This document shows, one piece after another, positions 13,308 to 45,037 of a DNA stretch of 64,000 bases. A program made the position numbers and the translations under genes. The notes beneath the pieces are model-generated. The model saw only the letters and a list, made by a program, of their open reading frames with translations. It was not told where the DNA came from and did not search any database. The DNA comes from Tenericutes bacterium ADurb.BinA124 (GTDB lineage: Bacteria > Bacillota_I > Bacilli_A > ML615J-28 > CAG-698). The DNA lies in NCBI GenBank assembly GCA_002068415.1, contig MVZM01000003.1, forward strand, positions 40,306 to 104,305. The letters are read 5' to 3'. Each line of letters starts with the position of its first letter. Position 1 is the first letter of the stretch.

Positions 13308-13545
13308 TTTCTTTCTCCTTGTCGATTTAAAGTAAAACAACTTATATGGTTGCAAATAATTGTTTTATTTGATTTTGTTATAATAATAATATATCAAAAA
13401 AAAGGGCTTGTCAAATATTAGTTTTTGAAAAAATTATTAGTGCAAATATCAACTTAAAATTGACCACCCTCACCAATTAATAGTCAAATGCTTATCTTTT
13501 TTAGTATAATAATTACATTTATCATTAGGGGAAGAAATAATAATT

Positions 13546-13929
13546 TATGAATCTGATGATGGAGCAACTCATATTGAAGTAAAGTTGGAAGATGATAATA
13601 TTTGGTTAACTCAGCAACAAATGGCTGAACTTTTTAGCACTTCTAGGCCCAATGTAGTTATTCACATCGGAAATATCTATTCTGAGGGGGAACTTGATAA
13701 AATTTCAACCTATAAGAATTTTAAACAGCTTCGAAAAGAAGAAAATAGAATGGTTGAAAAGGAGATACCTTTTTATAATTTTGATATGATTATTTCTCTG
13801 GGATATAGAATTAAATCATCTTTAGCCATTAGATTTAGAATATGGGCAACTGAAAAACTTAAAGAATATATGATTAAAGGTTTTACAATGGCATCTTCAG
13901 CAGAAATTATCATTAATTCACTAATGTAA
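13546..13929 (+). pseudogene. Truncated RhuM-family (virulence protein RhuM-like) gene fragment. Corresponds to residues about 20-135 of the intact paralog at 28012..28725. Unrelated C-terminal tail.
   Basis: MNLMMGATHIEVKLEDDNIWLTQQQMAELF...MIISLGYRIKSSLAIRFRIWATEKLKEYMIKGFTM aligns almost residue-for-residue with the 237-aa protein at 28012..28725 and then diverges and terminates. Confidence 0.7.
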
Positions 13930-25125: not shown

Positions 25126-26314
25126 TGCTTTCCACCTTCATTAAATGAATCTCATAGGGATCAACTTTTAAACCAATTGGTTGTCCGACTTCATAATTTT
25201 CATAGGTGTTGACCACAAATTCCACACCTTGAATATTAATGCATAGTTCATTATGAACACCTTTAAAAATGGCGGAAGTCACCACGCCCGTTAATTTGGC
25301 TTGGTCAAGGGGGACAACATCAAAATCTTCCGGACGAATAACAACATCGACATTTTCGTTGTCAGCAAAGGTATAGCCCATGCATGCAAACTCCACAGCC
25401 ATGAACTTCACTAAATTTTTCTTTAAGTAAACACCCGGGATGATATTCGATTCCCCGATAAAGGTCGCTACATAGCGATTAACCGGTTCATTATAAATAT
25501 CTTTCGGGGTCCCTAATTGTTGAATAACGCCATCTTTCATCACAACAATTCGATCACTCATCGTCATCGCTTCTTCTTGGTCATGAGTCACAAAGACAAA
25601 GGTAATCCCTAAGGTTCTTTGCATTTCTTTTAATTCGTACTGCATGTTTTGGCGTAATTTTAAATCTAAAGCCGCTAATGGTTCATCAAGCAAAAGAATT
25701 TTAGGACGATTAACAAGAGCCCGAGCAAGGGCCACGCGTTGTTGTTGACCGCCGCTTAATTGGTTGACTTTACGGCTTTCATAACCTTTTAGTTTAACCA
25801 AGGCTAGAGCTTTTTCCACCGCGGCACTGATTTTCCCATTGATAACTTTTCTTAGATCTCTTTTCGTAATTTTATAAGGTTCCGCTTGCCCGCGGGCTTT
25901 TTTTGTTTCTTTCACTTCATCGATAATTTGTTCTTCGTTAAAGAACTTTAATAAAAACTCCAAATTGCGGTTGCGTAAACCAAAGGCGACATTATCGAAA
26001 ACATTTAAATGGGGAAACAAAGCGTAGCGTTGAAAAACAGTATTAATCGGCCGAACATAGGGTGGTAAATCATTGATGACTTTGCCATCAATGATTATTT
26101 GTCCGGCATTCGGGCTTTCAAAACCGGCAATCATGCGAATAGTCGTTGATTTACCGCAACCCGAAGGACCTAATAAAGTTAAGAATTCATTCTCATAAAT
26201 CTTGAGATTGAGATTATCAACAATCACATCGTCGTCAAATTTTTTAGTAATATTTTTTAGCTCAATTAAAACCTTTTGCACACCAGTTTGCCTCCATTTT
26301 TTGTGATAGAACAA
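25118..26314 (-). CDS. potA: Spermidine/putrescine ABC transporter ATPase (398 aa; contains an about 40-aa insertion after Walker A relative to typical PotA)
   Basis: Walker A GPSGCGKST, signature LSGGQQQRV, Walker B LLLDEPLAALD, C-terminal TOBE-like domain. Confidence 0.85.
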   Translation of the reverse strand: MFYHKKWRQTGVQKVLIELKNITKKFDDDVIVDNLNLKIYENEFLTLLGPSGCGKSTTIRMIAGFESPNAGQIIIDGKVINDLPPYVRPINTVFQRYALFPHLNVFDNVAFGLRNRNLEFLLKFFNEEQIIDEVKETKKARGQAEPYKITKRDLRKVINGKISAAVEKALALVKLKGYESRKVNQLSGGQQQRVALARALVNRPKILLLDEPLAALDLKLRQNMQYELKEMQRTLGITFVFVTHDQEEAMTMSDRIVVMKDGVIQQLGTPKDIYNEPVNRYVATFIGESNIIPGVYLKKNLVKFMAVEFACMGYTFADNENVDVVIRPEDFDVVPLDQAKLTGVVTSAIFKGVHNELCINIQGVEFVVNTYENYEVGQPIGLKVDPYEIHLMKVESNE

Positions 26315-26434
26315 TTATATATTAATTATTGAGAAATACAAGTTAAAATTTTTATTTTTTTAAATTAATTTACATAGAAAAAAGCCAGTAAAACTGACCT
26401 ATTGATTTTGGGGTCACCTTAAAGGGATTAACTT

Positions 26435-26545
26435 TTTTTACCTCACAATTTATTAGATTGTGAATGTTGTTTAAACACAAGGGGTGATCAATTTCAAATC
26501 ACTGTTTTCTTTAAAATCTGGTCAATTTCAATTTACTATAAACAG
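26435..26545. repeat. About 110-bp direct repeat, copy 1 (contains two GGTCAATTTCAA motifs and the palindrome GTGATCAATTTCAAATCAC).
   Basis: About 85% identical to 27609..27720. Confidence 0.8.
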
Positions 26546-27100
26546 ATCTTTTACAATATCTTCAGGACAAGTAATCTCATTTCCTTTTAACGCTAAATCT
26601 AATACTTTTTCTTTATTATGATTTCCTTGATAAAGTAGCAATCTTTCATAGAGAGAAGTATTTACCTGACGCTTTAGTTCTCGAACAGACCATTTAGAAT
26701 TTATACTTTCTTTTTCATAGAAACTTCTTTTATTTTCATCACTTATGCTAAGAAGTTCGTAATAATGAGACCAAGACAATTTGCCAAACAGTGTCTGGCT
26801 TTATGGATAAGTAAGAAATAACTTCCTCATGTTTTGTAAATTTGACCTTGAAAATCTTTTACCAAACTCTTTGTTAAGTTCCTTTAAGAGGTCTTTAATC
26901 AAAGCCTGACCATATTCTACTCTGTCCAAGTGATTTTGTTCGTCTTCCACAATAGTTCTTCCTATTTCCCAATATACTTTGACTAAAGTGGTGTTCACAG
27001 TTTGAGATAGCTCTCGTCTAGCTTGGAGCATTATTCCTTTTATATTTTTAAAAACAGTGTTTTTGTCTTGATTTATCAAATTGCTCATATCCATCTGCAA
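26528..27100 (-). pseudogene. Frameshifted and truncated YhcG/DUF1016-family (PDDEXK nuclease) gene. Only the N-terminal about 190 aa, split over the track ORFs 26801..27100 and 26528..26779.
   Basis: LVKVYWEIGRTIVEDEQNHLDRVEYGQALIKDLLKELNKEFGKRFSRSNLQNMRKLFLTYP and SWSHYYELLSISDENKRSFYEKESINSKWSVRELKRQVNTSLYERLLL match the YhcG N-terminal domain. The nuclease domain is absent. Confidence 0.65.
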
Positions 27101-27555
27101 ATGTCAACTTGAAATTGACCACCTAGCGGTTTAACCACTCCTTGTTTAAGAAATTTATTATGTCCCCACGGTATTCTTAGTATTGGTGTTTCAAATTCCA
27201 CCCCAGCTTGGGGTAAATTCAGCACATTTGGATATAATTCGTAAAACCAAACCATATAGCGTAAATTTGTGACCGAAAACGACTTTACATCCAGCAGAAG
27301 TTCTGTTAAATCCTTACTGACATTATTATAAAAATCAGTACCATAGAGTGATGTTCTATTCATCGATGCAATATCTCTGCCGAGTATCCAATAAAACTGA
27401 AGCATTTGGTCGTTCACTTTAACAGCCACTTTTAATTGGCTTTTTCTAAATGCCTTGCTGATGGATTGAATCCATCCACGATAATATTCATCCTTCTTTA
27501 TCAATTCACTTACGAATCTACCTCCAAGCATTTTAACTTTTCTATGAAATCGCAC
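27085..27555 (-). pseudogene. Second, divergent YhcG/DUF1016 N-terminal fragment (156 aa)
   Basis: KVAVKVNDQMLQFYWILGRDIA...NLRYMVWFYELYP...IPWGHN follows the DUF1016 N-terminal domain pattern. No nuclease domain. Confidence 0.5.
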
Positions 27556-27608
27556 TTAATTCAACTTCTCTACAATCTCAAACCAGTAATAATTTTCTTT
27601 CTACTCCC

Positions 27609-27720
27609 TTTTACCTCACATTCTATTAGATTATGAGTGTCGTTTAACACAAAGGGTGGTCAATTTCAAATTGCTGTTTTCCTTAAAATCTAGTCAATTT
27701 CAGTTTACTATAAACAATTA
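27609..27720. repeat. About 110-bp direct repeat, copy 2.
   Basis: See copy 1. A partial inverted copy (GGTGGTCAATTTCAAGTTGACA) also lies at 27095..27125, and another partial copy (GGTGGTCAATTTTAAGTTGA, reverse complement) at 13445..13470 inside the islet. Confidence 0.75.
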
Positions 27721-27986
27721 TCATTATTTTTTACTTTATTATCTATTGTTTTAATAGTCTTTAAATATTCTTTCTCAACTTTTGTTAAAGTTTTAACTTG
27801 GTATTTTTTATATTCATCTCTTGCCTTTTCTATTGCTTGTTCATGAGAAATTGTTCCCGCATTTGCTAATATTTCTTCTCCAGCAGTGGAAAGAATTGAG
27901 TCTAAATATTTAATATGATCTTTCATATATATAGGTTTTTTTCTTATGGCATTTATCTCAGCGAAATCAAAATAACCTGAAACCAT
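27708..27986 (-). CDS. Hypothetical protein (92 aa), no recognisable domain
   Basis: ORF track only. The gene is adjacent to the RhuM gene in the same orientation. Confidence 0.3.
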   Translation of the reverse strand: MVSGYFDFAEINAIRKKPIYMKDHIKYLDSILSTAGEEILANAGTISHEQAIEKARDEYKKYQVKTLTKVEKEYLKTIKTIDNKVKNNDNCL

Positions 27987-28011
27987 ATTATTTAAAACTT
28001 TTAGTTCTTCT

Positions 28012-28725
28012 TCAGTTAAATAATTTTTGGCAATACCAATTATCCTTCATTCTTGGAAGTTCACCCTCAAAATTAGTAAGTCCCATAAAAGGTTTATTTG
28101 CATCTACACGATGATATATTATTTCGGCAGCAGTATTTCCATGGACAGCAAAGTGTAATTTATTTTGAACAATTTTAAAAAATTCAAATGTTTCTTCTGC
28201 TTCAGAATCGTAATCAATGCTAGTGGTATATAAGTCTAAAACTTGACGATATATAACCTTTTCAGAAGAACGAATATCACGAATTCTATCAATTAGTTCT
28301 TTCCAATAACTTCCCCCACCAAGCTCTTTAAGTCTTTTATCATCCATAGTAAAGCCTTTTATCATATATTCTTTTAATCGTTCTGTTGCCCAAATTCTAA
28401 ATCTAGTAGCAATAGATGACTTTATTCGATATCCTAGTGAAATTATCATATCTAAATTATAATAAGGCATTTTTCTTTGAACCTCTCTATTTCCCTCTTT
28501 TCGAACTTGTCGGAATTTCCGACAGGTTGAGTTTTCTAATAATTCTCCCTCACTATATATATTTTTAATATGTTCATTAACATTTGTTCGAGAACTATCA
28601 AAAAGTTCAGCCATTTGTTGCTGAGTTAACCAAATATTATCATCTTCAAGTTTTACTTCTATATTAGTTAAACCATCTTCAGTCTTGTAAATTATTATTT
28701 CACCTTTATCATTTTTTACTGACAT
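28012..28725 (-). CDS. RhuM-family protein (virulence protein RhuM-like), 237 aa, intact
   Basis: Family-typical IWLTQQQMAELF...NEHIKNIYSEGEL...MIISLGYRIKS...RFRIWAT. It is the full-length paralog of the fragment at 13546..13929. Confidence 0.65.
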   Translation of the reverse strand: MSVKNDKGEIIIYKTEDGLTNIEVKLEDDNIWLTQQQMAELFDSSRTNVNEHIKNIYSEGELLENSTCRKFRQVRKEGNREVQRKMPYYNLDMIISLGYRIKSSIATRFRIWATERLKEYMIKGFTMDDKRLKELGGGSYWKELIDRIRDIRSSEKVIYRQVLDLYTTSIDYDSEAEETFEFFKIVQNKLHFAVHGNTAAEIIYHRVDANKPFMGLTNFEGELPRMKDNWYCQKLFN

Positions 28726-29030
28726 AAGATATCTCCTTCTATAATTTATTATGATATTAAGTTTTAATGTTATTTCTTGTATATTTTAGCATAAATCTAT
28801 CGTCAAATAAAGTCATTTTATAAGATAAAAGCAATTATATTTTGATCAGTTCAAACTTCTAAAAGATAAAAGCAAATATATCAGTTCGAACTCTTGAACC
28901 AATAATACACAAGATCATTGCACAAAAAAACCGCTATAAGTTAAGATTTGAACTTATAACAGTTTGTATATTAATTAGTTTATTTAGCTTTATAGAGCAT
29001 TTTTTTCATTAAACTAACTTAACATTTCCT

Positions 29031-29105
29031 TGGAGCAGGTAGCGAGAATCGAACTCGTATCTTCGCCTTGGGAAGGCGACATAATAACCATTATACGATA
29101 CCTGC
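29031..29105 (-). tRNA. tRNA-Gly (anticodon CCC)
   Basis: Minus-strand cloverleaf GCAGGTA-TC-GTATAATGGTTATTATG-TCGCC-TTCCCAA-GGCGA-AGAT-ACGAG-TTCGATT-CTCGC-TACCTGC-T-CCA. Acceptor and anticodon stems are perfect. The D-stem is short and wobbly, and there is one A-C mismatch in the T-stem. The track ORF 29030..29284 (+) is antisense to it. Confidence 0.7.
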
Positions 29106-29209
29106 ACTCATTTTTTACGAATGTTATTTTAACATATCTCATCACATATTTCAACAAAAACAAACAAAATTTTAGGGGAAAAATCCCAGCTTTTTCCCCT
29201 AAAATAAGA

Positions 29210-43198: not shown

Positions 43199-45037
43199 TT
43201 AGTTCAGTTTAATAATTTTGGCGGTTTTTTTAGGAACATTGACTTTTTTCGAAACAGCGAGCTCATCAATTAAATCAAAGCCTTCTCCCAAATGATAGCT
43301 AATGTCATAATGATTATTATTAACGATGGTTAAGATTTTTTCGTGGTCTTTTTTCCGGGAAAAAGCAAAAACATTATTGCTCGTTGATTCTTCGTAATAT
43401 TGACCATCAACAAAGACTGATAAATGACGAATCTTCCCTAACTTTTGGTACCAATTAAAGAGATCTTGATTGATATGATCCCAATCAATGGTTCTTCGGC
43501 AGAAAGGATCACGGAATCCTTCCATGCCCGTTTCATCACCATAAAAAATAGAAGGTACCCCGGGCAAAGTAAATTGGATGGCCGTTGCCATTTTCAATCT
43601 CCTAACCGCTTCATGATATTCCGCTTCACTCATGTGATAATAAGCTTGTTCTTCTTTACGAAGCTGATCAGGACTGACGGGGGCAAAATTAGTCAATAAA
43701 CGGACAGTGTCATGCGTTCCTAAATGGTTCATCAAACTATCAATGACATGTTTCGGATAATTATTGATTAAATGGCGGATTTGGATGACCAAACCGGTTA
43801 AATTGTCATGCTTGATAAAATCAATGATGGCCTTTTTAAGGGGATAATTCATAACACTGTCGACTTGCTTCCCCCACAAATAACGACGACGCTGATTATA
43901 AGCATGCTTTGTGGAGGCATCTTCCCACACTTCACCGATGACGATGTTTTCCGGGTCATTGGCTTTGACAGCGGCATAGATTTTATCTAAAAAAGTATTA
44001 TCCAGTTCATCAATAACATCCAGCCGCACGCCTTTGGCCCCTTGAGTTAACCACTTATCAAGAACCCCATGCTTCCCCGTAATAAACTGTTGATAATAGG
44101 GATCTTGTTGGTTGACGGCGGGCAGGGTTTTAAATCCCCACCAACAAGCATATTGATTAGGCCAGTTAATGAACTTGTACCAACGGTAATACTTGGAGGC
44201 TCGGGATTGATAAGCACCCAGTTCAGGATAACGCTGGTATTTATTAAAATAAATACTGTCATCGCCGGTGTGGTTATAAACACCGTCAAAGATAATTGCG
44301 ATGCCTTTTTCCTTGGCTTTGGCACATAACAATTGGAAATCAGCTTCCGTTCCCAACATGGAATCAATTTTTCGATAATCACCGGTGTCATATTTATGAT
44401 TGGAAAAAGCTTCAAAAATGGGGTTTAAATAAATCACACCGACATTCAAGGACTGTAAGTAATCGAGTTTCGCAATCACTCCTTGTAAATTCCCCCCAAA
44501 AAAGTCATTGTTCAAAACAACTCCATTAGTGGCTTGAAAATGCGGAACATCACACCAATCATCATGCATGATAGCATGGGGTTTTGGAATGGTTTGCCCA
44601 ACTTTAAAAAAGCGATCAACCATAATTTGGTACATGACTTTCCCTTTAAACCAATTTAATTCACCAATAAAGGCTTGATGAACCAACAATTGCCAAGAAG
44701 TCGGATAATAATCCGTCAAAACACCGTCCAAATCCCGGTTGGAACCAATAAAGTGGGTGCCATAAACATCACAGCATTCAAAATAATACCAATATAAGCC
44801 CTTTTCTGCCAAAGAAAAAGTTACTTGATAAACCTGGTAATTGTTCTCATGGCCCTTTTTTTCTAAACTCAATCTTTTTATCTCTTGATTGCCATCGTCT
44901 TTCACAAGCAAATCTAAATAATAGAATTGATATGTTTCGATGACTAAAACAGTGATTTTAACTTGATCACTGTTTTTTATTGCACCTTGGGGAAATTTGT
45001 ATTTTTCATAAAAAGGATTGAATAAGATGTTTTTCAT
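43199..45037 (-). CDS. GH13 neopullulanase / cyclomaltodextrinase / maltogenic amylase (612 aa, cytoplasmic)
   Basis: N-terminal domain plus GH13 conserved regions (DGVYNH, GVRLDVIDE, EVWE, HDTVR). Confidence 0.85.
   Translation of the reverse strand: MKNILFNPFYEKYKFPQGAIKNSDQVKITVLVIETYQFYYLDLLVKDDGNQEIKRLSLEKKGHENNYQVYQVTFSLAEKGLYWYYFECCDVYGTHFIGSNRDLDGVLTDYYPTSWQLLVHQAFIGELNWFKGKVMYQIMVDRFFKVGQTIPKPHAIMHDDWCDVPHFQATNGVVLNNDFFGGNLQGVIAKLDYLQSLNVGVIYLNPIFEAFSNHKYDTGDYRKIDSMLGTEADFQLLCAKAKEKGIAIIFDGVYNHTGDDSIYFNKYQRYPELGAYQSRASKYYRWYKFINWPNQYACWWGFKTLPAVNQQDPYYQQFITGKHGVLDKWLTQGAKGVRLDVIDELDNTFLDKIYAAVKANDPENIVIGEVWEDASTKHAYNQRRRYLWGKQVDSVMNYPLKKAIIDFIKHDNLTGLVIQIRHLINNYPKHVIDSLMNHLGTHDTVRLLTNFAPVSPDQLRKEEQAYYHMSEAEYHEAVRRLKMATAIQFTLPGVPSIFYGDETGMEGFRDPFCRRTIDWDHINQDLFNWYQKLGKIRHLSVFVDGQYYEESTSNNVFAFSRKKDHEKILTIVNNNHYDISYHLGEGFDLIDELAVSKKVNVPKKTAKIIKLN

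What the first reader, a model, noticed from the sequence alone, without database searches (positions are those of the whole stretch)
26340..29110. Decayed genomic island abutting the 3' end of tRNA-Gly(CCC), sharing a GGTGGTCAATTTCAA element with the upstream islet
Between potA and tRNA-Gly lie an intact RhuM-family gene, a 92-aa ORF, and two independently truncated or frameshifted YhcG/DUF1016 nuclease genes with only the N-terminal domains left. There are also two 110-bp direct repeats that each contain two GGTCAATTTCAA motifs and a palindrome. A partial copy of the same motif (reverse complement) sits upstream of the RhuM fragment in the 11.8-14.0 kb islet. The two loci therefore look like remnants of the same element family, and the motif may be a recombination or binding site of that element. 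tRNA-adjacent placement is classic for integrative islands.
Basis: partly seen in the sequence, partly recalled or inferred. Interest (0 to 1): 0.5.

Follow-up and report, generated by a model that had tools for sequence, protein, structure and literature searches.

The report
Decayed tRNA-Gly islet with IS21 remnants
A 2.6-kb piece of foreign, broken DNA sits exactly behind a tRNA-Gly gene of an uncultured Acholeplasma-like bacterium, and its puzzling 110-bp repeats and GGTCAATTTCAA motifs are the leftover ends of an IS21-family jumping gene that has lost its transposase: an ordinary relic.

Summary
Window 26412-29030 is a low-GC (29.7%) insertion placed exactly at the 3' end of tRNA-Gly(CCC). 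Three related genomes have tRNA-Gly, a terminator and potA with nothing in between. Every gene in the island is dead. RhuM is not intact: the 237-aa and 92-aa ORFs are one gene split by a 1-nt frameshift. Both DUF1016 genes lack the nuclease domain. These lesions are identical in at least 18 independent assemblies, so they are not sequencing errors.

The two roughly 109-nt repeats are left ends of an IS21-family insertion sequence: a 5'-TG terminus, two transposase-binding direct repeats, and the istA leader hairpin. The motif copies at 27096-27123 and 13441-13478 are right ends of the same IS; the first is preceded by the last seven codons of istB. Complete copies (istA plus istB) occur in other Bacilli metagenome-assembled genomes. 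Solo left ends also follow AbiE, Fic, Macro and ATPase genes, so the motif is not specific to RhuM.

Separately, close RhuM homologues in two other genomes also sit just after a tRNA-Gly, once flanked by att-like repeats of the tRNA 3' end. This supports an integrative origin. Ordinary; low interest.

The parts
29031..29105 (-). tRNA-Gly(CCC); its 3' end (29031) is the proximal border of the island
   Evidence: ARAGORN; Rfam tRNA 56.7 bits; 97-99% identical to the tRNA-Gly(CCC) of island-free relatives
26412..29030 (.). The island: 2.6-kb low-GC insertion absent from relatives (distal border good to about +/-8 nt)
   Evidence: blastn of empty sites L272, L273, L274 and L279 against the window joins 29030/29031 to about 26411; GC 0.297 against 0.386 and 0.412 in the flanks
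28928..28965 (-). Intrinsic terminator brought by the island; it now serves the tRNA
   Evidence: terminator scan; homologous hairpin with compensating changes after tRNA-Gly(GCC) in L277
28816..28881 (-). 41-nt tandem duplication in the RhuM upstream region (single copy in L277)
   Evidence: the repeat finder family D3; alignment with L277
27708..28725 (-). RhuM-family pseudogene: 237-aa plus 92-aa ORFs joined by a +1 frameshift near 28040; the last two codons and the stop come from the IS end
   Evidence: Pfam PF13310 profile 1-164 and 183-249; three-frame translation; 89% identity to intact P0121
27609..27716 (-). IS21-family left end B: 5'-TG terminus at 27716, repeats L1 (27690-27703) and L2 (27655-27670), istA-leader hairpin 27615-27637; ends just before the istA ribosome-binding site
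   Evidence: 87% identity to positions 58-165 of the complete IS in L172; alignment A1; hairpin pairs
27147..27608 (-). Non-IS filler inside the IS shell: DUF1016_N fragment 1 (likely start 27531, cut after IPWGHNKFL; called ORF 27085-27555)
   Evidence: Pfam PF17761 profile 2-100; only 25% identical to copy 2; found only in this context
27123..27146 (-). Last seven codons and stop of istB (NKEWLNR*)
   Evidence: 95% identity to IS positions 2389-2427 of L172; L172 IstB ends ...KETKEWLNR
27096..27123 (-). IS21-family right end, terminal 28 nt ...GTTGACATTTGCA-3'; only one of the two R repeats is left
   Evidence: 96% identity to IS positions 2437-2464 of L172; right-end sequences of L172, L258, L257 and L260
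26528..27094 (-). DUF1016/YhcG copy 2, pseudogene: intact N-terminus, in-frame TAA at 26801-26803, cut after ...DIVKD by the IS end; PD-(D/E)XK domain missing
   Evidence: Pfam PF17761 profile 1-79 and 92-137; alignment with roughly 300-aa homologues that carry PF06250
26431..26544 (-). IS21-family left end A (solo): terminus at 26544, L1 26518-26531, L2 26483-26498, hairpin 26442-26464
   Evidence: 84% identity to IS positions 57-170 of L172; alignment A1
26378..26400 (-). Ancestral terminator of tRNA-Gly, now 2.6 kb away from the tRNA
   Evidence: terminator scan; same element directly after the tRNA in L272, L273 and L279
13441..13478 (+). Solo IS21-family right-end remnant in the upstream islet (terminus at 13441), next to a RhuM fragment cut at both ends
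   Evidence: 87% identity to IS positions 2427-2464 of L172; 26/28 nt match to 27096-27123; Pfam RhuM profile 1-63 for 13585-13929

Best explanation
Window 26412-29030 is a dead remnant of horizontally acquired DNA, lodged exactly at the 3' end of tRNA-Gly(CCC) in an uncultured Acholeplasma-like 'Bacilli bacterium'. It contains two kinds of mobile DNA.

1. A RhuM module. The same kind of module sits directly after tRNA-Gly genes in other genomes, once flanked by att-like repeats of the tRNA 3' end. It therefore most likely arrived by site-specific integration at the tRNA (inferred). Two unrelated DUF1016/YhcG genes lie next to it.

2. Copies of an unnamed IS21-family insertion sequence. They landed at the RhuM stop codon, just upstream of the start of DUF1016 copy 2, and at about codon 179 of that gene (junctions shown). 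Deletions later removed istA, istB and neighbouring DNA, including the nuclease halves of both DUF1016 genes and the distal att repeat (inferred).

The '110-bp repeats' are two left ends of this IS. Each has a 5'-TG terminus, the direct repeats L1 and L2, and the istA leader with a conserved hairpin. In this family the transposase IstA binds such repeats and cleaves at the terminal CA. The GGTGGTCAATTTCAA copies at 27096-27123 and 13441-13478 are right ends.

There is no transposase in the window, and the in-island right end keeps only one of its two repeats. The ends are therefore inert scars, not working sites.
For: IS identity:
- The complete IS in L172 and L258 reads left end, istA (500 aa), istB (246 aa), right end.
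- NCBIfam: IS21 family transposase, 185 bits against a cut-off of 160; IS21 helper ATPase IstB, 250 bits against a cut-off of 200.
- Nearest solved structures are IS5376 IstA and IstB.
- Window matches to this IS: 27716-27609 (87%), 26545-26431 (84%), 27147-27109 (95%, including the istB tail NKEWLNR*), 27123-27096 (96%) and 13478-13441 (87%).
- The architecture fits the published IS21 ends: two repeats per end and a terminal CA (PMC10122671).
- The leader hairpin is kept across 10 copies, with a G-C for A-U swap in two of them.
- Solo ends lie beside unrelated genes.

Island:
- Empty sites exist in L272, L273/L274 and L279, whose PotA proteins are 81-90% identical.
- GC is 0.297 against about 0.39-0.41 in the flanks.
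- RhuM homologues at 89% and 81% identity sit after tRNA-Gly(GCC). The spacer is homologous in L277, and L276 has a 24-30-nt direct repeat of the tRNA 3' end.

Lesions are real: 99.96-100% identity in at least 18 contigs.
Against: - No target-site duplications flank any IS end, either in the window or in the complete copies. Those complete copies sit on metagenome contigs that may be chimeric across a repeat.
- No distal repeat of the tRNA end and no integrase lie in the window, so integration at the tRNA is inferred from L276 and L277 only.
- The order of insertions and deletions is a reconstruction.
- Seven of seven solo left ends of this sequence subgroup lack istA, and six of the seven inner breakpoints fall within about 35 nt just before the istA start. 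Random decay does not predict this.
- How a DUF1016_N fragment came to lie between a left end and an istB tail is not explained.
Confidence: 0.85

Rival explanations
1. One reading: the GGTGGTCAATTTCAA motif and the 110-bp repeats are recombination or binding sites of a RhuM-carrying island family. They would mark the cassette borders of that element in both loci.
For: Motif copies lie at junctions between gene fragments in both RhuM-containing islets. RhuM modules really are associated with tRNA-Gly.
Against: - The repeats are the two ends of complete istA-istB elements.
- One copy carries an istB tail.
- The intact RhuM loci L276 and L277 contain no copy of either end.
- Solo ends follow AbiEii, Macro, Fic and ATPase genes and a tRNA-Leu.
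- The att-like repeat seen in L276 is the tRNA 3' end, not this motif.
Confidence: 0.04
2. The segment 27096-27716 (left end, DUF1016_N fragment, istB tail, right end) and the other solo left ends belong to a family of non-autonomous IS21 derivatives. These would be moved in trans by IstA, or kept for their leader or promoter, rather than being random decay products.
For: - The 621-bp segment has both kinds of end in the correct relative orientation.
- All seven solo ends of the 'TGTTTATAGTAAAC' subgroup lack istA. Their inner breakpoints cluster just before the istA start, and all point the same way as the gene upstream.
- Two of them share a further 52-nt module.
Against: - No target duplication flanks the segment (flanks ...GATAAT and GATGGA...).
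- Its right end has one repeat, whereas IS21-type integration needs two (PMC10122671).
- The exact fragment-1 ORF occurs only in this one context in 15 contigs.
- Solo ends have no partner right end nearby.
- Genes in these genomes are largely co-directional, so the shared orientation is weak evidence.
Confidence: 0.09
3. The inverted motif copies (27105-27123 and 27655-27673; 19 nt, 95% complementary) are the crossover sites of a DNA-inversion switch that flips the 531-bp segment between them.
For: A good inverted repeat flanks a gene 5' part (pair I2).
Against: - There is no recombinase gene in or near the island.
- All contigs from many samples that cover the island carry the same orientation at 99.96-100% identity.
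- The arms are explained as L2 and R repeats of an IS.
Confidence: 0.01
4. The repeats are a REP- or MITE-like short dispersed element of this genome, unrelated to any insertion sequence.
For: The unit is short, non-coding, contains a hairpin and is dispersed at several intergenic sites.
Against: - The unit aligns over its whole length with the left end plus istA leader of complete IS copies.
- It lacks a matching inverted repeat at its inner end.
- There is no Rfam family hit other than the tRNA.
Confidence: 0.02

Closest known systems
IS21 family insertion sequences (IS21; IS5376 of Geobacillus stearothermophilus, whose IstA-DNA and IstB structures are solved)
   Same: - Complete relatives have the two genes istA and istB.
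- The termini are 5'-TG...CA-3' and each end has two direct repeats. This matches the published L1/L2 and R1/R2 layout (PMC10122671).
- The best PDB hits are IS5376 IstA and IstB.
   Different: - IstA is at most 38% identical to annotated IS21-family transposases on plasmids, so this is an unnamed, distant member.
- In the window only the ends and 24 nt of istB survive.
- The left-end repeats are 34 nt apart and the right-end repeats about 25 nt apart.
- No target duplications were seen.
tRNA-targeted integrative islands and their integrase-less derivatives (cis-mobilizable elements, CIMEs; named from my own knowledge)
   Same: - The insertion sits exactly at a tRNA 3' end.
- Composition is foreign and the cargo is accessory.
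- In L276 a 1.6-kb RhuM-only module is bracketed by direct repeats of the tRNA 3' end.
   Different: - No integrase is present.
- No distal repeat remains in the window.
- The cargo is entirely pseudogenised.
- No evidence of excision was found.
RhuM (PF13310) of Salmonella SPI-3, an island at the selC tRNA (from my own knowledge)
   Same: Same Pfam family, and it lies in a tRNA-adjacent island.
   Different: The host lineage is different, the gene is frameshifted here, and the function of the family is unknown.
YhcG/DUF1016 PD-(D/E)XK nucleases
   Same: The N-terminal domain PF17761 is present in both copies. Homologues at 60-70% identity carry PF17761 plus PF06250.
   Different: Both copies lack the catalytic C-terminal domain.

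Membership tests
IS21 family insertion sequence | Encodes the transposase IstA and the helper ATPase IstB | tested here: not met
   The window has no istA or istB coding sequence (tblastn), only the last 24 nt of istB (27123-27146). Complete relatives L172 and L258 meet the feature: NCBIfam NF033546 at 185 bits (cut-off 160) and NF038214 at 250 bits (cut-off 200). The window copies are therefore remnants, not members able to transpose.
IS21 family insertion sequence | Terminal inverted repeats, each built of two direct repeats (L1/L2, R1/R2) | tested here: met
   Left ends A and B each have two TGAAATTGAC repeats 34 nt apart. The right end of L172/L258 has two GGTGGTCAATTTCA repeats about 25 nt apart. 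The window right end keeps one repeat. The family feature is as described in PMC10122671.
IS21 family insertion sequence | Termini 5'-TG ... CA-3' | tested here: met
   All left ends start TGT(A/T)TAT.... All right ends finish ...GACATTT(G/A)CA.
IS21 family insertion sequence | Short target-site duplication (4-8 bp; 5 bp reported for IS5376) | tested here: inconclusive
   No matching flanks were found for the window ends or for L172, L258, L257 and L260. Rearrangement, or chimeric assembly across a repeat, could hide them.
tRNA-targeted integrative genomic island | Inserted at the 3' end of a tRNA gene, with an empty site in relatives | tested here: met
   L272, L273/L274 and L279 have tRNA-Gly(CCC), terminator and potA with about 150 nt between them. 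The window has 2.6 kb more, starting at the tRNA's last base.
tRNA-targeted integrative genomic island | Direct repeat of the tRNA 3' end at the distal border | tested here: not met
   There is no repeat in the window; at most about 6 nt (CCCCA) remain. The feature is met in the related RhuM module of L276 (24 nt, 23/24 matching, extendable to about 30 nt).
tRNA-targeted integrative genomic island | Integrase gene | tested here: not met
   The only ORFs in the island are the RhuM and DUF1016_N fragments.
tRNA-targeted integrative genomic island | Composition differs from the host | tested here: met
   GC 0.297 against 0.386 and 0.412 in the flanks.
RhuM family (PF13310) | Full-length match to the family profile in one reading frame | tested here: not met
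   Profile positions 1-164 and 183-249 lie in two frames, with one extra base near 28040.
YhcG/DUF1016 nuclease | N-terminal domain PF17761 plus C-terminal PD-(D/E)XK domain PF06250 | tested here: not met
   Only PF17761 is present in both copies. Copy 2 stops where homologues continue DPYVFEFLG... into PF06250.
MITE / REP-type dispersed repeat | Short unit with inverted repeats at both of its own ends and target duplications | tested here: not met
   The inner end of the unit (…TGTGAGGTA) is not an inverted copy of its outer end, and no duplications were found.

The most novel reading that the evidence does not exclude
The roughly 110-nt IS21-type left ends of the 'TGTTTATAGTAAAC' subgroup may not be random wreckage. 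They could be a family of non-autonomous or domesticated units in this Acholeplasma-like lineage. Seven of seven lack istA. Six of seven stop within about 35 nt just before the istA start. All point the same way as the accessory or defence-type gene immediately upstream (RhuM, DUF1016, AbiEii, Macro, Fic, AAA_14/DUF4143). One pairs with a right end around a captured DUF1016_N fragment. This could reflect a specific process, such as a hot spot for nested insertion and deletion in the leader, one-ended or trans-mobilised events, or retention of the leader as a regulatory module.
Probability: 0.1. Interest if true: 0.45.

Novelty: new member of a known kind. Interest (0 to 1): 0.18.

Why it matters
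Mostly as a clean-up. It shows that a repeat-plus-motif pattern that looked like an island-specific recombination site is the footprint of an insertion sequence. It also shows that the island is a fixed, non-functional relic in this population.

It gives correct annotation for a poorly studied, uncultured Acholeplasma-like lineage from anaerobic digesters:
- an unnamed IS21-family element with defined ends;
- a RhuM pseudogene;
- two DUF1016 pseudogenes;
- a displaced tRNA terminator.

The recurring placement of RhuM modules directly after tRNA-Gly genes, once with att-like repeats and no integrase, is a small lead on how such single-gene accessory modules move.

Tried and rejected
- Rfam scan of 26200-29200 at permissive E-values: only the tRNA matched, so the repeat is not a known RNA family.
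- Counting the 12-mer with up to 2 mismatches: no enrichment in the window. Only the long matches matter.
- Viral-contig scan with the 17-mer: 119 stretches of DNA with at least one match (one per stretch in the 80 rows listed), nearly all chance. Only L093 and L072 extended.
Five loci extended.
- A weak nhmmer hit at 44943-44973 is an ordinary terminator hairpin.
- Target-site duplications were looked for at every end and none was found.
- Repeat of the tRNA 3' end in the window: none.
- Look-up of the exact fragment-1 protein for other contexts, as a mobility test: only this locus.
- Reading the repeats as coding remnants (GGQFQ appears in both orientations): rejected once the istB tail and the IS alignment explained them.
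- Inversion switch: rejected because no inverted variant exists in any contig that covers the island.
- The 109-nt unit against plasmids: no match.
- 'Module 2' of L093/L266b is absent from the window.
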